DNA from: Escherichia coli
Lineage (GTDB): Bacteria > Pseudomonadota > Gammaproteobacteria > Enterobacterales > Enterobacteriaceae
Direction: 5' to 3' (one strand)
Length of the DNA: 64,000 nt
Assembly: GCF_044647545.1 (NCBI RefSeq)
Contig: NZ_CP172818.1
Shown here: positions 641-20,833 of the stretch, piece after piece
Position numbering within the stretch: position 1 is the stretch's first letter
Layout of the letters: every line of letters begins with the position of its first letter
Notes under the pieces: model-generated
What the model saw: the letters and a program-made list of their open reading frames with translations, nothing else
Told to the model about the DNA's origin: nothing
Databases searched by the model: none
Translations under genes and position numbers: made by a program

Positions 641-2266
641 TTAAGCCACTTCCAGCACTTCTTTTGTCGCTTTAACGCCCTGATGCATCAACATCATTAA
701 CGCCTCAAGTACGCCGCCGCCAATCGCCCGGGCTTTATCAGAAACGCTGGTGAAATCAGCCGTTTCACCACGAGGATCGATATCACCAATTTTAAAACCA
801 CCGACCACTGCCAGTCCGTCGTTCAACAAGCCACGCACCATCCCCGTCAACGGTGCTTTAATTTCATGCTCACCAATCCAGGCAATCACATCGCCCTCTT
901 TCACCAGATCGCCTAATTTCACGTTGGATCGCATAATGCCTGCAGCAGGAGCACGGATCACCCGTCGGGTGGTATGCCCCATAATATTGCCGGGAACACC
1001 GGTATTCTCCTGCGCACAACCAGAGTAAATCACCTGACCGAGCCAGTGCCCGCGATTTGTTTCAATTACCGCATGACAATCCTTCCCTGCAGTAAAGCCC
1101 GGCCCAAGCGCGATTGTTACTGGTGCCATATCTGCCCGCGTTCCCAAATTCTGTTTCGCCAGAATAGCGTCCACCACGCAAAGCGGTTTCAGTTCATCAA
1201 GCAATGAACAGGTGGGATCTACCATCACAGGGATGAATCCGCGTTCGGTAAGTTTCATCGCTTCCGCAGAGCTGGTTGCCAGGCGGGCGGTGACGCCTTC
1301 GACCGTCATTTCGCCATCGAACACGGCCTGGGCAAACGCCACGGTACAACGAATCACTGTCGGTTTTTCCACTTCCAACATGATCACTTTAAAACCCGCA
1401 TGATACAGACGTAGCGCTACACCACTGGCGATATCCCCCGCACCGCGAATCACCACCAGCTGGTGTCCGGAAGGATGAGAAGGCTTCATCATCAGCCCAC
1501 CCGGCGCGTTATTTTTCACCTGTAATATTTCTGCCAGCACGCTGATGGCGATCTCCTGCGGCGTTTCCGCACCTATGTTGTAACCAACGGGCGCATGTAA
1601 ACGGGCAATATGTTCTTCAGCCACGCCTTTCTCACGCAATTGACGCAGGAAAAGCTGAACCTTGCGACGACTTGCCAGCAACCCCAGCCATGCAATGGGC
1701 TGTTCAATGAGTTTGTCGAGGGCTTCACGATCCTGATTATTCGTGGCAATCAGGACAAAATTATCAGGGCGAATATCCAGTGCTTCCACTGCCGCACCAA
1801 ACGACTCAGCATAGAGAAGCGTGGTTGATGGTGGGAATAGTTCAGGATTGAGGCTTTCGCGATAAATATCAGCAACGGCAATATCAAATCCTAATAGCGC
1901 CGCACTCTGGGCTATCGCCCGGTTGACATGCCCCGCGCCAATCAACACCAGACGTGGACGCATACCATGGACGCTGATAAATACTGACATTGCACCTCCA
2001 CAATCTGACCCGACAGCATCCGCACCGTTACGAGCCATACGTCCATGGAATAATCGCGGCTTACGTTCCTGCAATGCCTGAAGCGACTCTTCAATCACCT
2101 TCCGCTCAACCATTCCGCCACCAATTGTACCGACGATAGAGCCATCGGCGCGCACTAACATTTGTGCAGAATGGCGGGGAGTCGAGCCTCGGCTATCAAC
2201 AATTTGCGCCATCGCAAACGGACAATTTTGCTCTTCGAGTTTTGCAGCCTCTGTGAAAATATTCAT
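641..2266 (-). CDS. yqeB: XdhC/CoxI-family molybdenum hydroxylase accessory protein YqeB
   Basis: 541-aa ORF, same length as E. coli YqeB; recognised by sequence and by position next to yqeC. Confidence 0.9.
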   Translation of the reverse strand: MNIFTEAAKLEEQNCPFAMAQIVDSRGSTPRHSAQMLVRADGSIVGTIGGGMVERKVIEESLQALQERKPRLFHGRMARNGADAVGSDCGGAMSVFISVHGMRPRLVLIGAGHVNRAIAQSAALLGFDIAVADIYRESLNPELFPPSTTLLYAESFGAAVEALDIRPDNFVLIATNNQDREALDKLIEQPIAWLGLLASRRKVQLFLRQLREKGVAEEHIARLHAPVGYNIGAETPQEIAISVLAEILQVKNNAPGGLMMKPSHPSGHQLVVIRGAGDIASGVALRLYHAGFKVIMLEVEKPTVIRCTVAFAQAVFDGEMTVEGVTARLATSSAEAMKLTERGFIPVMVDPTCSLLDELKPLCVVDAILAKQNLGTRADMAPVTIALGPGFTAGKDCHAVIETNRGHWLGQVIYSGCAQENTGVPGNIMGHTTRRVIRAPAAGIMRSNVKLGDLVKEGDVIAWIGEHEIKAPLTGMVRGLLNDGLAVVGGFKIGDIDPRGETADFTSVSDKARAIGGGVLEALMMLMHQGVKATKEVLEVA

Positions 2267-2313
2267 ACCAACCTCAATGGATATCCTTTCAGTAACCCGG
2301 AATACCCGGGCCG

Positions 2314-3084
2314 CTAATTCACAAATCTGCGCGCGATTGCAGGATGTTCTTGTATATCGCCCAGCCAGATTGCCTCTACGTTGTGTTGTTGCAGCGGTTG
2401 AAGGAGCTCGCTTTGCGCAATCGCATTCTCACATTGAGAAAAACGGTTAATGAACCAGACTCGCCGACAACCTTGCGGTACGTTTTTAAACGCCCCCTGA
2501 GGGTGGCGAACCAGCGCAACGAGATCGCTCAGTTGCAAGGGTGCATCAGGTGTTAACCCAGTAATATCAGCAAACTGCGACCAGCGATGGACATTTTCTG
2601 TGCTCACTTTCGCACCCAAAATATGTCCTCCCATCACAGCAATCACGCAGCAACTGCTTTTAGGTATGCAAGGTTCGTGCTCATCAGGCGCTTTTAACGG
2701 CATTCCACGCGAGCCATCTGCTTCAATGAGAATTACGTCACACTCTGGTCGTTGTACCAGTGCATCAATCGCTTCTGGCGTAAATCCCTGCACTTTTCCC
2801 TGATTCGCTTTCCAGCTGTGAAAACAAAATGAAATGGGGGATATAAAAGACGCATGAGGAAGCATGGCGGGATCACGACAGAAAACCACGGGCCAGTGAG
2901 ATGTTGGCATAAACATATGTGTCGTCGTAGTGATTAATACACGCCTGCCGCTCGCCTGGAACAGTTCTGCCAGCCAAAAAAGCAAGCTGGTTTTCCCCCC
3001 AGCACCAACAACAGAAATCACAGTGGGACGTTTCTGCGCGCCTAAATCAATGAATAATGCCGATGGGTCAATTATACTTTTCAC
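2314..3084 (-). CDS. yqeC: selenium-dependent molybdenum hydroxylase system protein YqeC
   Basis: 256-aa ORF with P-loop-like GAGGKTS motif; length and context match YqeC. Confidence 0.9.
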   Translation of the reverse strand: MKSIIDPSALFIDLGAQKRPTVISVVGAGGKTSLLFWLAELFQASGRRVLITTTTHMFMPTSHWPVVFCRDPAMLPHASFISPISFCFHSWKANQGKVQGFTPEAIDALVQRPECDVILIEADGSRGMPLKAPDEHEPCIPKSSCCVIAVMGGHILGAKVSTENVHRWSQFADITGLTPDAPLQLSDLVALVRHPQGAFKNVPQGCRRVWFINRFSQCENAIAQSELLQPLQQHNVEAIWLGDIQEHPAIARRFVN

Positions 3085-3187
3085 GCGTCTTTATGGACCT
3101 CTCTGGGATAAATTATCCCCAACTTAATCCATCAGGAAGTAACGCAATTATCAGGCGTTATTAGCCCCTATAAATAATGGAACCACT

Positions 3188-18959: not shown

Positions 18960-19310
18960 TTGCATCCCTTTCATTTAATGAGTTATGTCTTCTCAAATTT
19001 CGCGATGCAATAAATGGGCATATATTAGGTAGCATGACCGATTTAATTATAATTTTGCGACTGAGTTCAAATTATTGCCCCTCAATCTGTGCCGCTTTCA
19101 TTATTTCAACATTGCCGAACAAAAGAGAGCTAACCAGATAAAAACGATTAAATACGAGAGTGCGACATGCCAGAATGATTAATGAAATATCAATATGAGA
19201 AAATTACAGATAATTCCATTGTCAGGTTCTCTTCTCATTTTCGTGTTTTAACCACGATTATGTGATTGCCTCCGCAATTCCTGTCTCTAACTCCCCTTCC
19301 TCGCAAAAAC

Positions 19311-19326
19311 TGGCACTCCACGAGCA
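19311..19326 (+). promoter_or_regulatory. candidate sigma-54 (-24/-12) promoter upstream of uacT
   Basis: TGGCAC at 19311-19316 and GCA at 19324-19326 with consensus GG-N10-GC spacing, about 70 bp upstream of the uacT ATG. Confidence 0.3.
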
Positions 19327-19394
19327 TGTGTTTAGACAGTTTCATGAACGTAAACGGTTGCTTTTTACTCTGGCGAGCGAAAGGAGAAACACTG

Positions 19395-20833
19395 ATGAGC
19401 GCCATAGATTCCCAACTTCCCTCATCTTCAGGGCAAGACCGCCCAACTGATGAGGTTGACCGCATATTATCACCAGGAAAGCTGATCATACTCGGTCTGC
19501 AACACGTCCTTGTCATGTACGCAGGTGCAGTCGCTGTTCCTCTTATGATTGGCGACAGGCTTGGCCTCTCCAAAGAAGCTATTGCGATGCTCATTAGCTC
19601 GGATCTCTTTTGCTGCGGGATCGTCACATTATTGCAATGTATCGGTATCGGCCGCTTTATGGGGATCCGCCTGCCGGTGATTATGTCGGTGACCTTCGCC
19701 GCTGTAACACCAATGATAGCCATTGGGATGAACCCGGATATCGGCCTGCTGGGGATATTTGGTGCCACTATCGCCGCGGGTTTTATCACCACATTATTAG
19801 CGCCACTTATCGGTCGCTTGATGCCTTTATTCCCGCCACTGGTTACCGGTGTGGTGATTACTTCTATCGGACTTAGCATCATTCAGGTGGGTATTGACTG
19901 GGCCGCAGGAGGTAAAGGGAATCCGCAATATGGTAATCCCGTTTATTTAGGTATCTCCTTTGCTGTCTTAATTTTTATCTTGCTCATTACTCGCTATGCG
20001 AAAGGATTTATGTCCAACGTCGCCGTATTACTGGGGATTGTATTTGGCTTTTTACTTTCGTGGATGATGAATGAAGTCAATTTATCCGGGCTACATGATG
20101 CCTCGTGGTTTGCGATTGTCACGCCGATGTCATTTGGTATGCCGATTTTCGATCCCGTTTCCATTCTGACCATGACTGCCGTGTTAATCATCGTGTTTAT
20201 CGAGTCGATGGGGATGTTCCTGGCACTGGGTGAAATAGTCGGTCGTAAACTCTCTTCACACGATATTATTCGCGGGCTGCGTGTCGATGGCGTAGGGACA
20301 ATGATAGGCGGAACGTTTAACAGCTTCCCCCACACGTCATTTTCACAAAACGTTGGCCTGGTTAGCGTGACGCGCGTTCATAGCCGCTGGGTGTGTATTT
20401 CTTCGGGAATTATATTAATCCTGTTTGGCATGGTGCCAAAAATGGCGGTGCTGGTCGCCTCCATTCCGCAATTTGTGCTGGGCTGGTGATGTTCGGCATG
20501 GTACTGGCGACAGGGATTCGAATTCTGTCGCGCTGTAACTACACCACCAACCGTTACAACCTCTATATTGTGGCGATCAGTCTCGGCGTTGGCATGACTC
20601 CGACGCTCTCTCACGATTTCTTTTCTAAGTTACCGGCCGTACTGCAACCGTTGCTGCATAGCGGCATTATGCTCGCAACCCTTAGCGCCGTTGTGCTGAA
20701 CGTCTTCTTTAATGGCTATCAGCATCATGCTGATCTGGTGAAGGAATCCGTCTCTGATAAAGATTTAAAAGTCAGGACAGTACGTATGTGGCTTCTGATG
20801 CGCAAGCTGAAGAAAAATGAGCATGGAGAATAA
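19395..20833 (+). pseudogene. uacT: uric acid transporter UacT (NCS2), reading frame broken near 20471-20490
   Basis: N-terminal 363 codons in one frame (ORF ending 20489), C-terminal part in another frame (ORF 20393-20833); total span is 10 nt shorter than needed for the 482-aa protein; start ATG preceded by RBS AAAGGAG. Confidence 0.8.

What the first reader, a model, noticed from the sequence alone, without database searches (positions are those of the whole stretch)
641..20833. Large purine-catabolism / selenium-dependent molybdenum-hydroxylase cluster with unresolved biochemistry
yqeB, yqeC, mocA, ygfK, ssnA, ygfM, xdhD, ygfS and ygfT are interleaved with the purine transporters and deaminase xanQ, guaD, ghxQ and uacT. 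This is the least-characterised functional unit in the window: the XdhD/YgfM hydroxylase substrate, the roles of the GltD-like Fe-S flavoproteins YgfK and YgfT and of the amidohydrolase SsnA are not established, and yqeB/yqeC are genomic markers of selenium-dependent molybdenum hydroxylases. Tight spacing (ygfK-ssnA 3 bp, ygfM-xdhD overlap) suggests translational coupling.
Basis: partly seen in the sequence, partly recalled or inferred. Interest (0 to 1): 0.55.

Follow-up and report, generated by a model that had tools for sequence, protein, structure and literature searches.

The report
E. coli anaerobic urate-degradation gene cluster
This is the well-known E. coli gene island that breaks down purines and uric acid without oxygen; its core chemistry was published in 2025, so it is ordinary, except that this strain's urate importer gene is broken and a few mechanistic details remain open.

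Summary
The window is E. coli chromosome, 100% identical to strain FDAARGOS_497. About 95% of 5,426 complete E. coli genomes hold at least 80% of the 20-kb segment. Twelve genes are intact. uacT carries a 10-bp deletion that truncates it to 364 of 482 residues; about 46 genomes share this allele.

The "unresolved biochemistry" claim is largely out of date. Papers from 2023-2025 show that XdhD-YgfM reduces urate to 2,8-dioxopurine, YgfK reduces that ring, and SsnA opens it. Upstream genes then finish the route to pyruvate. Sigma-54 promoters and a YgeV iModulon support co-regulation of ygfK-ssnA-ygfM-xdhD, ygfT and uacT. They do not cover xanQ-guaD-ghxQ.

Still open are the biochemical role of YgfT/YgfS, selenium dependence in E. 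coli, and the function of YqeC.

- The "Fe-S" domain of XdhD lacks all eight [2Fe-2S] cysteine ligands, in all 108 orthologues examined.
- The N-domain of YgfK is a DPD/DHODH-like barrel.
- YqeC is a SIMIBI P-loop NTPase that is repeatedly fused to MocA.
- An 11-mer, TCATATTGATA, lies upstream of the regulon's sigma-54 promoters.

Verdict: already known, low to moderate interest.

The parts
641..2266 (-). yqeB: XdhC-like Moco chaperone domain (residues 12-247) plus a YqeB-specific C-terminal domain (271-526)
   Evidence: NCBIfam TIGR03309 scores 417 bits against a cut-off of 220. Pfam finds XdhC_CoxI and XdhC_C. In the PDB only the XdhC-like half has sequence relatives. 99.6% identical to K-12.
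2667..2683 (-). Intragenic sigma-54 promoter inside yqeC that drives yqeB (TGAGCACGAACCTTGCA)
   Evidence: Exact match to site IS34 of Bonocora et al. 2015. That paper validated the site by mutation, ChIP-qPCR, qRT-PCR and Western blot.
2314..3084 (-). yqeC: SIMIBI-class P-loop NTPase, marker of the selenium-cofactor trait
3188..3766 (+). mocA: molybdenum cofactor cytidylyltransferase, which makes the MCD form of Moco
   Evidence: TIGR03310 scores 213.9 bits against a cut-off of 186.
3818..3830 (.). Palindromic TATCATAATGATA, a candidate enhancer site about 190 nt upstream of the ygfK sigma-54 promoter
   Evidence: It is a 1-mismatch copy of TCATATTGATA. Exact copies of that 11-mer lie upstream of PxdhA, PygeW and PuacT/PygfT.
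3999..4015 (+). Sigma-54 promoter of the ygfK-ssnA-ygfM-xdhD operon (GTGGTGCGATTGTTGCT)
   Evidence: Exact match to ChIP-seq site OS31 of Bonocora et al. 2015.
4088..7186 (+). ygfK: NAD(P)H-dependent 2,8-dioxopurine reductase. Domains: N-terminal DPD/DHODH-like barrel (1-450), Fer4_20 (453-533), FAD/NAD(P)H (552-839), C-terminal 2x[4Fe-4S] motifs (898-948)
   Evidence: TIGR03315 scores 1779 bits. Pfam layout. The N-domain model has pLDDT 88.7, and its best Foldseek matches are pig DPD and DHODH at E 7e-9 to 1e-7, probability 1.00. Biochemistry.
7189..8517 (+). ssnA: amidohydrolase that opens the reduced purine ring
   Evidence: TIGR03314 scores 737 bits and NF005540 710 bits. The coupled YgfK+SsnA assay is in Li et al. 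2025.
8568..9347 (+). ygfM: FAD-binding subunit that partners XdhD
   Evidence: TIGR03312 scores 486 bits. XdhD co-purifies with a ~30-kDa protein that the authors take to be YgfM. Its four cysteines are not conserved in a distant orthologue.
9344..12214 (+). xdhD: molybdenum (MCD) subunit of urate reductase, with a cysteine-free relic of the 2x[2Fe-2S] domain at residues 1 to about 150
   Evidence: TIGR03313 scores 2119 bits. There is no cysteine before residue 190, and all 8 XdhC ligand positions are substituted in 108 of 108 orthologues. E606 is present. The urate to 2,8-dioxopurine activity is.
12224..12239 (+). GC-rich hairpin (GGCCGCTTCGGCGGCC) followed by a T-rich tail: a terminator-like site after xdhD
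   Evidence: Consensus scan and the sequence itself.
12379..13779 (+). xanQ: xanthine/H+ symporter
   Evidence: NCS2 family TIGR00801 scores 454 bits. One residue differs from K-12.
13797..15113 (+). guaD: guanine deaminase (the K-12 annotation starts one codon earlier, at 13794)
   Evidence: NF006679 scores 739 bits and TIGR02967 634 bits.
15149..16516 (+). ghxQ: guanine/hypoxanthine transporter
   Evidence: RefSeq annotation. 100% identical to K-12 GhxQ. No NCBIfam model matched at E<=1e-10.
16522..16545 (+). Terminator-like hairpin between the convergent genes ghxQ and ygfS
   Evidence: Consensus scan: 9-bp stem with 7 GC pairs.
16552..17040 (-). ygfS: HydN-like ferredoxin with 16 cysteines (4x[4Fe-4S] type)
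   Evidence: Matches the N-terminal domains of AegA/YgfT and HydN. 45% identical to YgfT residues 1-157. Placed in the HydN/YsaA/AegA paralogue group by Pinske 2018.
17040..18959 (-). ygfT: HydN-like ferredoxin domain fused to a GltD-like FAD/NAD(P)H Fe-S flavoprotein
   Evidence: NF009451 scores 1496 bits against a cut-off of 1154. Synteny with uacT/xdhD holds in Escherichia and Citrobacter, and with an xdhABC-like cluster in Buttiauxella.
19006..19022 (-). Sigma-54 site upstream of ygfT (TATGCCCATTTATTGCA)
   Evidence: ChIP-seq site OS32, which has a weak motif score of 4.5. The window has one spacer mismatch relative to K-12. The site is conserved in six taxa.
19188..19198 (-). TCATATTGATA: candidate shared enhancer site in the ygfT/uacT divergent region
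   Evidence: Exact 11-mer, invariant in Escherichia and two Citrobacter. It lies 133 nt from the uacT -12 element and about 185 nt from the ygfT -12 element.
19310..19326 (+). Sigma-54-like -24/-12 element CTGGCACTCCACGAGCA, 69 nt upstream of the uacT ATG
   Evidence: Pattern search. Identical in K-12. AAAACTGGCAYYCCACGAGCATGT is invariant in six taxa even where the flanks diverge. It is absent from the ChIP-seq list. uacT is in the YgeV iModulon.
19395..20833 (+). uacT: urate/H+ symporter, a pseudogene in this strain (10-bp deletion after 20482; premature TGA at 20487-20489)
   Evidence: The truncated product covers only positions 1-328 of the 407-position pbuX profile.

Best explanation
Bases 641-20833 are the distal half of the YgeV/sigma-54-controlled island that E. 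coli uses to degrade purines anaerobically. The route is the reductive 2,8-dioxopurine ('yanthine') pathway. The segment has five modules.

1. Cofactor maturation (yqeB, yqeC, mocA). MocA makes the cytidine-dinucleotide form of Moco. This rests on established knowledge and an equivalog match. YqeB is inferred to insert Moco and to install its terminal S or Se ligand. YqeC, a P-loop NTPase, is inferred to assist MocA and/or YqeB.

2. Ring attack (ygfK-ssnA-ygfM-xdhD), one sigma-54 operon with translationally coupled junctions. XdhD-YgfM removes the C6 oxygen of urate to give 2,8-dioxopurine. YgfK, a domain-permuted relative of dihydropyrimidine dehydrogenase, reduces the ring. SsnA hydrolyses it. 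These three steps are shown in the literature with E. coli proteins.

3. Feeding (xanQ-guaD-ghxQ). These genes import xanthine, guanine and hypoxanthine and deaminate guanine. The functions are established for K-12, and the block probably has separate regulation.

4. Electron supply (ygfT-ygfS). This Fe-S and flavin relay is inferred to link formate oxidation to the two reductive steps. The evidence is genetic only.

5. Urate import (uacT). A 10-bp deletion inactivates it in this lineage. This strain can probably still process urate made inside the cell from xanthine, but should take up external urate poorly. That consequence is inferred.

The downstream steps to pyruvate (hyuA, ygeW, yqeA, ygeY, ygeX) and xdhABC lie just upstream. 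The window begins inside yqeA/arcC.
For: Identity and conservation. Family assignments: the eight cofactor and enzyme genes and guaD pass curated cut-offs; xanQ passes only the NCS2 superfamily model; ygfS and ghxQ rest on domain matches or annotation.

Published biochemistry with E. coli proteins:
- Li et al. 2025, PMC12507026
- Liu et al. 2025 bioRxiv
- Commentary PMC12990295

Independent checks made here:
- The YgfK N-domain model (pLDDT 88.7) best matches DPD and DHODH. Invariant GPAAGP, STMHG(C)P (Cys near-invariant) and KLNPT motifs are present.
- XdhD has Glu606.

Regulation:
- The published sigma-54 sites PyqeC, PygfK and PygfT are present.
- The YgeV iModulon lists xdhABC, ygeWXY, hyuA, ygfK, ssnA, ygfM, xdhD, ygfT and uacT.
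- A conserved sigma-54-like element and a shared 11-mer lie upstream of uacT.

uacT lesion.

ygfT-ygfS synteny with the Mo-enzyme genes appears in two different arrangements.
Against: - XdhD has none of the eight [2Fe-2S] cysteine ligands. The usual FAD to Fe-S to Mo electron path cannot exist, so the published NADH/YgfM route may not be the physiological one.
- Kinetic parameters have not been reported.
- Selenium dependence was shown only for the clostridial enzyme, which C. difficile data put at about 25% identity to XdhD.
- A C. difficile yqeC knockout had no phenotype.
- The YgfT role is genetic only, and AegA did not interact with FDH-H in two-hybrid tests.
- xanQ, guaD, ghxQ, yqeB, yqeC and mocA are not in the YgeV iModulon. 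A terminator-like hairpin follows xdhD. The 20 kb is therefore several transcription units, not one.
- The two 2025 papers disagree on which ureido group YgeW cleaves.
Confidence: 0.88

Rival explanations
1. One reading: a selenium-dependent molybdenum hydroxylase that oxidises an unknown purine, with YgfK, YgfT and SsnA of unknown role.
For: yqeB and yqeC are markers of the selenium-cofactor trait. XdhD is homologous to xanthine dehydrogenases. Database names are still vague.
Against: The substrate and direction are now published: urate is reduced to 2,8-dioxopurine. YgfK and SsnA activities have been reconstituted.
Confidence: 0.04
2. The database reading: YgfK, YgfM and XdhD form a selenate reductase.
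For: NCBIfam and RefSeq still name YgfK 'putative selenate reductase subunit', and the models are labelled Se_sel_red.
Against: YgfK has a DPD/DHODH-type barrel and no Mo domain. It acts on 2,8-dioxopurine. [quoted passage not shown]
Confidence: 0.03
3. The 20 kb is not one functional unit. It is a catabolic regulon (ygfK-xdhD, ygfT-ygfS, uacT) interrupted by an independently regulated purine transport and deamination block (xanQ-guaD-ghxQ) and by a cofactor block with its own control (yqeB from an intragenic sigma-54 promoter that responds to nitrogen limitation).
For: The YgeV iModulon omits xanQ, guaD, ghxQ, yqeB, yqeC and mocA. A terminator-like hairpin follows xdhD at 12224-12239. The yqeB promoter was found under nitrogen limitation.
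Against: Gene order is conserved across Escherichia and Citrobacter. The products feed the same pathway: guanine to xanthine to urate. This reading refines the best explanation rather than excluding it.
Confidence: 0.45
4. The physiological reductant of XdhD is not NADH via YgfM. It is an external Fe-S carrier, either the HydN-like YgfS/YgfT/AegA module charged by formate dehydrogenase H, or YgfK. On this reading YgfM and the cysteine-free domain are structural or regulatory relics.
For: All eight [2Fe-2S] ligands are absent in 108 of 108 XdhD orthologues, while the domain itself is conserved. YgfM has no conserved cysteine set to compensate. Urate degradation in E. coli needs formate and involves aegA and ygfT (as cited). 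A ygfT-ygfS pair sits next to Mo-enzyme genes in two different arrangements.
Against: Li et al. saw NADH-dependent product formation with affinity-purified XdhD and the co-purifying putative YgfM. The distant cluster L016 has xdhD and ygfM but no ygfT or ygfS within 10 kb. No structure or distance measurement was made here.
Confidence: 0.25

Closest known systems
E. coli K-12 uricolytic (2,8-dioxopurine / reductive urate) gene cluster, b2866-b2888
   Same: Same genes in the same order and orientation. Proteins are 97-100% identical. The published sigma-54 motifs are the same.
   Different: uacT is frameshifted here. K-12 has an extra REP-like insertion of about 180 bp between yqeA and yqeB. 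There is one base change in the PygfT motif spacer.
Clostridial uric acid cluster (C. sporogenes XdhAC/DOPDH, C. difficile XdhD-UacX-UacY)
   Same: Same pathway intermediates. ssnA, hyuA, ygeY and ygeX are shared. The selenium-trait genes yqeB and yqeC accompany both.
   Different: The clostridial Mo enzyme is not orthologous (about 25% identity for the C. difficile enzyme). It has no FAD subunit, is described as having Fe-S domains, shows no NADH dependence, and is proven to depend on SelD. C. difficile uses UacX instead of YgfK and UacY instead of YgeW.
Dihydropyrimidine dehydrogenase (PydA/DPD) with dihydropyrimidinase (PydB), the reductive pyrimidine pathway
   Same: YgfK has a DPD/DHODH-like barrel, a Fer4_20 domain, a FAD/NAD(P)H domain and a C-terminal dicluster domain. 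It reduces an aromatic ring before an amidohydrolase (SsnA) opens it.
   Different: Domain order is permuted: the barrel is N-terminal in YgfK and penultimate in DPD. The barrel has only about 15% identity to DPD and is invisible to Pfam and to PDB sequence searches. The substrate is a purine.
Xanthine oxidase family enzymes (E. coli XdhABC, R. capsulatus XDH, 4-hydroxybenzoyl-CoA reductase)
   Same: XdhD has the Moco-binding domains and a partner FAD subunit. Like 4-hydroxybenzoyl-CoA reductase, it runs in the dehydroxylating, reductive direction; that parallel is drawn from my own knowledge.
   Different: The Fe-S domain of XdhD has lost all eight cluster ligands. No extra cluster site was found in YgfM.
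MobA-MobB (guanylyltransferase plus P-loop NTPase adaptor in MGD synthesis)
   Same: A nucleotidyltransferase for Moco (MocA) is paired with, and often fused to, a P-loop NTPase (YqeC), just as MobA/MobB fusions exist. The NTPase is dispensable in one organism. The comparison with MobB's dispensability rests on my own knowledge.
   Different: MobB was not among the top structural or profile matches of YqeC; the nearest were FtsY/SRP54, MinD, UreG and HypB. The resemblance is functional analogy only. YqeC is also found fused to the YqeB C-domain.

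Membership tests
E. coli ygeV-uacT uricolytic island (K-12 b2866-b2888) | Same gene content and order, with orthologous proteins | tested here: met
   100% DNA match to an annotated E. coli chromosome. 97-100% protein identity to K-12.
E. coli ygeV-uacT uricolytic island (K-12 b2866-b2888) | All pathway and transport genes intact | tested here: not met
   uacT has a 10-bp deletion and a premature stop. The other 12 genes are intact.
Xanthine oxidase family molybdoenzyme (XdhD) | Moco-binding domains (Ald_Xan_dh_C, MoCoBD_1/2) | tested here: met
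   TIGR03313 scores 2119 bits, and XdhA models match at E 1e-154. Pfam domains precomputed for identical proteins are listed.
Xanthine oxidase family molybdoenzyme (XdhD) | Two [2Fe-2S] clusters, each bound by four cysteines | tested here: not met
   No cysteine before residue 190. The eight ligand positions read G, A, D, S, S, N, S, D. The positions hold no cysteine in any of the 108 orthologues, including one only 53% identical.
Xanthine oxidase family molybdoenzyme (XdhD) | FAD-binding partner subunit | tested here: met
   ygfM overlaps xdhD by 4 nt and matches TIGR03312 at 486 bits. Co-purification of a ~30-kDa protein, putatively YgfM, is reported.
Selenium-dependent molybdenum hydroxylase trait | yqeB and yqeC marker genes present | tested here: met
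   TIGR03309 and TIGR03172 both score above their cut-offs.
Selenium-dependent molybdenum hydroxylase trait | selD present in the genome | not testable with these tools
   selD lies outside the window. E. coli is known to carry it (my own knowledge; SelD of MG1655 is used as a query).
Selenium-dependent molybdenum hydroxylase trait | Labile selenium required for activity of the Mo enzyme | not testable with these tools
   Shown for C. sporogenes DOPDH and for C. difficile growth. Not reported for E. coli XdhD in the papers read.
Dihydropyrimidine dehydrogenase-like Fe-S flavoenzyme (YgfK) | DPD/DHODH-type TIM barrel (the FMN/substrate domain in those enzymes) | tested here: met
   The model has pLDDT 88.7 and pTM 0.90. 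The top 50 Foldseek hits are all DPD or DHODH. GPAAGP, STMHG(C)P and KLNPT motifs are conserved. Cofactor binding itself was not modelled.
Dihydropyrimidine dehydrogenase-like Fe-S flavoenzyme (YgfK) | GltD-like module (Fer4_20 plus FAD/NAD(P)H) and a C-terminal dicluster domain | tested here: met
   Pfam finds Fer4_20 at 453-533, Pyr_redox_2 at 552-839 and Fer4_7 at 900-950. Cysteine motifs lie at 898-948. PDB hits include NfnA, GltD and DPD.
Dihydropyrimidine dehydrogenase-like Fe-S flavoenzyme (YgfK) | DPD domain order (Fe-S, FAD, NADPH, FMN barrel, Fe-S) | tested here: not met
   The barrel is N-terminal (1-450) in YgfK. YgfK works like DPD but is a permuted relative, not a member.
NCS2/NAT nucleobase transporter (UacT) | Full-length protein covering the whole family profile | tested here: not met
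   The 364-residue product covers only positions 1-328 of the 407-position pbuX profile.
Sigma-54 / YgeV regulon | -24 GG and -12 GC promoter elements upstream of the operons | tested here: met
   PyqeC, PygfK and PygfT match published ChIP sites. A new conserved candidate lies upstream of uacT.
Sigma-54 / YgeV regulon | Activator (YgeV) binding to an upstream enhancer | tested here: inconclusive
   A shared TCATATTGATA motif lies 120-225 nt upstream of four promoters. In L001 there are 6 hits within 1 mismatch against 0.63 expected, and 0 of 100 shuffles reach 6. No binding data exist, and an IHF-like site is a rival.
SIMIBI-class P-loop NTPase (YqeC) | Walker A GxxGxGK[ST], a Walker B acidic residue and the SIMIBI fold | tested here: met

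The most novel reading that the evidence does not exclude
The XdhD family is a xanthine-oxidase-type molybdoenzyme that has lost both [2Fe-2S] clusters while keeping the empty domain. If so, urate reduction in E. coli is not wired internally from NADH through YgfM. It would depend on an external Fe-S donor: the formate-linked YgfS/YgfT/AegA ferredoxin module, or YgfK. That would explain the unexplained formate, AegA and YgfT genetics.

In parallel, YqeC may be the NTPase partner of the cytidylyltransferase MocA and of YqeB in building a selenium- or sulfur-bearing MCD cofactor, rather than a selenium-specific factor. That would explain why its knockout is silent in C. difficile.
Probability: 0.3. 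Interest if true: 0.55.

Novelty: already known. Interest (0 to 1): 0.27.

Why it matters
The cluster is medically topical. It is the gut-bacterial route that removes uric acid in uricase-less humans, and it is being engineered into probiotics for gout. As a scan finding it adds nothing to the published picture, so it should not be ranked as a discovery.

Four by-products of this check are testable and bear on engineering the pathway:
1. A globally spread E. coli lineage carries a dead urate importer. Carrying the enzyme genes therefore does not guarantee that a strain consumes external urate.
2. The first enzyme lacks the expected internal electron wire, so the choice of reductant (NADH, or formate via ferredoxin) may limit flux.
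3. The fusions tie YqeC to MCD synthesis.
4. A candidate YgeV enhancer motif and a candidate uacT sigma-54 promoter give handles on regulation, which the 2025 papers call poorly understood.

Tried and rejected
- **Rfam.** A permissive scan of 1-24000 found no RNA family, so no riboswitch or sRNA explains the long intergenic regions.
- **Repeats.** The repeat search found only short matches. They reflect paralogy: ygfS against the ygfT N-domain, and ygfK against ygfT.
- **A compensating Fe-S site in YgfM.** Its four cysteines (142, 144, 160, 250) are not conserved in the 53%-identity cluster L016, so this was rejected.
- **Comparative genomics of YgfT.** Four of them (54-60% identity, matching only the GltD-like C-terminal part, so probably paralogues) had no cluster genes nearby.
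- **Locus L017.** This YgfK homologue has ssnA nearby but no xdhD within 10 kb, so it was uninformative for the Fe-S question.
- **Primary paper on formate dependence.** Iwadate & Kato 2019 is not held, so it is cited second-hand.
- **Lineage of the uacT deletion.** Strain IMT16316 co-occurs with 'ST648' in papers, but the passages read did not state its sequence type. The lineage name is unverified.
- **Sigma-70 promoter scan.** It gave no more sites than shuffles (23 against 22.6), so it was not used.
- **Prior reports.** Searches for a uacT sigma-54 promoter and for the missing XdhD cysteines found nothing in the held library. This is not proof of absence elsewhere.

Full report
**What is there**

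The window is E. coli chromosome. Bases 641-20833 are 100% identical to strain FDAARGOS_497 and several other genomes. Of 5,426 complete E. coli genomes, 5,153 hold at least 80% of the segment.

Twelve genes are full length and 97-100% identical to K-12 at protein level. The eight cofactor and enzyme genes and guaD pass the curated cut-off of their own NCBIfam model. XanQ passes the NCS2 superfamily model. YgfS matches only HydN/AegA/YgfT N-domains. GhxQ matched no model and rests on annotation and identity to K-12.

The junctions are as tight as claimed:
- ygfK and ssnA are separated by 2 nt.
- ygfM and xdhD overlap by 4 nt (ATGA).
- ygfT and ygfS overlap by 1 nt.
- Each downstream start has a Shine-Dalgarno sequence 7 nt upstream, inside the preceding gene.

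**One correction to the observation**

uacT is a pseudogene in this strain. A 10-bp deletion (K-12 CGGCGCTGGT, between short CTGG repeats, after window 20482) shifts the frame to a TGA at 20487-20489. The product has 364 residues instead of 482 and covers only positions 1-328 of the 407-position xanthine/urate permease profile.

A 100-nt probe across the lesion matches at >=99% in 46 of 5,348 genomes. Hosts include humans, dogs, pig, chicken, a dolphin and a wild bird. All other genomes align with the 10-bp gap. The whole 20 kb is >=99% identical in 58 records, which is consistent with one clonal lineage. I could not verify its sequence type.

**What it is, from the literature**

- Liu et al. 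[quoted passage not shown] - Li et al. 2025 (PMC12507026) purified E. coli XdhD with a co-purifying ~30-kDa protein taken to be YgfM. With NADH the preparation reduces urate to 2,8-dioxopurine ('yanthine').
- The same paper showed that YgfK plus SsnA with NAD(P)H convert this product to ureidomethyl-hydantoin. HyuA, YgeW, YgeY and YgeX then lead to pyruvate.
- Liu et al. [quoted passage not shown] They also showed that the C. sporogenes Mo enzyme needs SelD.
- A commentary (PMC12990295) summarises both studies and lists the open points.

The substrate of XdhD and the roles of YgfK and SsnA are therefore known, and XdhD acts as a dehydroxylating reductase.

**Independent checks of that picture**

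YgfK residues 1-450 match nothing in Pfam or in PDB sequences, and Liu et al. call this region a domain of unknown function. An AlphaFold model built on 39 homologues (pLDDT 88.7, pTM 0.90) has pig dihydropyrimidine dehydrogenase and dihydroorotate dehydrogenases as its 50 best Foldseek matches (E 7e-9 to 2e-7). The GPAAGP, STMHG(C)P and KLNPT motifs are conserved.

This supports the modelling statement of Li et al. that YgfK resembles DPD. It also shows that the domain order is permuted, with the barrel first. XdhD in the window has the Glu606 that Li et al. single out.

**Regulation**

Three published sigma-54 sites are present:
- The validated intragenic promoter in yqeC that drives yqeB (2667-2683).
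- PygfK (3999-4015).
- The weak PygfT site (19006-19022), with one spacer change.

The YgeV iModulon, as listed in PMC12133099, contains xdhABC, ygeWXY, hyuA, ygfK, ssnA, ygfM, xdhD, ygfT and uacT. It does not contain xanQ, guaD, ghxQ, yqeB, yqeC or mocA. A terminator-like hairpin follows xdhD. The 20 kb is thus several transcription units. The catabolic ones are co-regulated, and the transport/deaminase block probably is not.

**Two regulatory features I did not find reported**

First, a sigma-54-like element, CTGGCACTCCACGAGCA (19310-19326), lies 69 nt upstream of uacT. It is identical in K-12. It sits in a 24-nt island that is invariant across Escherichia species and two Citrobacter species, even where the flanks have diverged. 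It is not in the ChIP-seq table.

Second, the 11-mer TCATATTGATA occurs at these places:
- Exactly in the ygfT/uacT intergenic region (19188-19198).
- Exactly upstream of PxdhA and PygeW in K-12.
- As the palindrome TATCATAATGATA upstream of PygfK (3818-3830).

All copies lie 120-225 nt from the -12 element. In the 44-kb locus L001 there are 6 hits within one mismatch against 0.63 expected, and none of 100 shuffles reaches 6. The exact copies are confined to the two intergenic regions with sigma-54 promoters. This is a candidate YgeV enhancer site. An IHF-like site is the obvious rival.

**An unexplained feature of XdhD**

The protein is annotated 'Mo/Fe-S-binding subunit', and its first 150 or so residues are homologous to the 2x[2Fe-2S] subunit XdhC. 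Yet it has no cysteine before residue 190.

Aligned with E. coli XdhC, all eight cluster ligands are replaced: C45, C49, C52, C64, C103, C106, C140 and C142 become G, A, D, S, S, N, S and D. None of the eight positions holds a cysteine in any of the 108 full-length orthologues examined. These include Enterobacterales, Photobacterium and Paludibacterium. They also include a 53%-identical orthologue in a ygfK-ssnA-ygeY-hyuA-ygfM-xdhD-ygeW cluster on a 3.4-Mb metagenome contig.

The domain is nearly as conserved as the rest of the protein (47% against 54% identity), so selection is keeping it. The cysteines of YgfM are not conserved, so no compensating cluster is evident. Neither 2025 paper mentions this, and neither do two Moco reviews.

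The canonical path from FAD through two Fe-S clusters to Moco therefore cannot exist in XdhD-YgfM. How electrons reach Mo is open. One inference is that an external Fe-S donor does it.

**YgfT and YgfS**

YgfT is a HydN-like four-cluster ferredoxin domain fused to a GltD-like flavoprotein. YgfS is a free-standing paralogue of that ferredoxin domain (45% identity, 16 cysteines each).

The published evidence is genetic and transcriptional. Urate degradation in E. coli needs formate and involves aegA, ygfT and ygeV (Iwadate & Kato 2019, as cited). ygfT is strongly urate-induced. Reviews still list the function as unknown.

The ygfT-ygfS pair stays next to uacT and xdhD in Escherichia and Citrobacter. 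A 58%-identical pair sits beside an xdhABC-like operon, mocA, ygeV and ygeWXY in Buttiauxella. One Citrobacter lacks ygfS.

The most likely role is an electron relay from formate dehydrogenase H to NAD(P)+ or directly to the reductases. This step is inferred.

**Cofactor genes**

MocA is the MCD cytidylyltransferase (equivalog match). YqeB is an XdhC-type chaperone with an extra 256-residue domain that has no solved or Pfam relative.

Among the 150 best 50%-identity cluster representatives of the family, the fusions are:
- 13 fused to MocA (8 as YqeC-MocA, 5 as MocA-YqeC).
- One YqeC-MocA-YqeB(C-domain) triple fusion.
- One YqeC-YqeB(C-domain) fusion.
- One with a ModE DNA-binding domain.

In the window yqeC and mocA are divergent neighbours. 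This suggests that YqeC works with MocA and YqeB in MCD cofactor assembly, by analogy with MobB and MobA. That would fit the silent yqeC knockout in C. difficile. It is an inference, and MobB itself was not a top structural match.

**Selenium**

The marker genes are present. Selenium dependence has been shown only for the clostridial enzyme, which is not orthologous to XdhD (about 25% identity for the C. difficile enzyme) and is described as having Fe-S domains. The E. coli paper does not address selenium, yqeB or yqeC.

**Verdict**

The feature is already known, a textbook-strain locus whose pathway was published in 2025. It deserves a low score as a discovery.

The residual interest lies in the cysteine-free Fe-S domain of XdhD, the YgfT/YgfS question, the YqeC-MocA link, the candidate enhancer motif, and the lineage-specific loss of the urate importer.

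Noticed in passing
window 20482-20489 (uacT): A 10-bp deletion between short CTGG repeats makes uacT a pseudogene. About 46 of 5,348 complete E. coli genomes share the allele, from humans, dogs, pig, chicken, a dolphin and a wild bird. All other cluster genes stay intact.
   Followed up: yes
window 9344-9850 (XdhD residues 1-170): The '2x[2Fe-2S]' domain of XdhD has no cysteines. All eight ligand positions are substituted in 108 of 108 orthologues, yet the domain is conserved. I did not find this in the papers read.
   Followed up: yes
window 19188-19198 and 3818-3830; L015 (K-12) upstream of xdhA and ygeW: The 11-mer TCATATTGATA (palindromic variant TATCATAATGATA) lies 120-225 nt upstream of four sigma-54 promoters of the ygeV regulon. 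It is a candidate enhancer-binding site.
   Followed up: partly
window 19310-19326: A sigma-54-like -24/-12 element upstream of uacT is invariant in Escherichia and Citrobacter. It is absent from the published sigma-54 ChIP-seq list.
   Followed up: partly
window 2314-3766 (yqeC, mocA); proteins P0146-P0261: YqeC homologues are repeatedly fused to MocA in both orders. Fusions to the YqeB C-domain and to a ModE DNA-binding domain also occur.
   Followed up: partly
window 603-640 versus L002 7395-7614: K-12 has an insertion of about 180 bp between yqeA and yqeB. It has REP/BIME-like sequences and is flanked by a duplicated copy of the terminator hairpin. The window has the single-hairpin 'empty' site.
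   Followed up: no
window 19014 (PygfT motif spacer): The window is the only one of six aligned taxa with T instead of C at this position of the ygfT sigma-54 site.
   Followed up: no
L005 (Citrobacter sp. R56); L008 (Escherichia sp. MOD1-EC7003); L013 (Buttiauxella sp. A111): Citrobacter R56 lacks ygfS. In Escherichia MOD1-EC7003 only YgfT residues 1-292 match. Buttiauxella has a ygfT-ygfS-like pair next to xdhABC-like genes, mocA, ygeV and ygeWXY.
   Followed up: no
window 42889-43072 and 43721-43871: 6S RNA (ssrS) and a Sib antitoxin RNA are the only Rfam matches at gathering score in the whole window.
   Followed up: no
window 13794-13797 (guaD start): PGAP starts guaD one codon later than the K-12 annotation (438 against 439 residues).
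   Followed up: no
window 5494-5515 and 18255-18276: A 22-nt inverted match (95%) between ygfK and ygfT encodes the same IPEYIRL stretch of their Fer4_20 domains. It is a trace of paralogy, not a regulatory repeat.
   Followed up: partly
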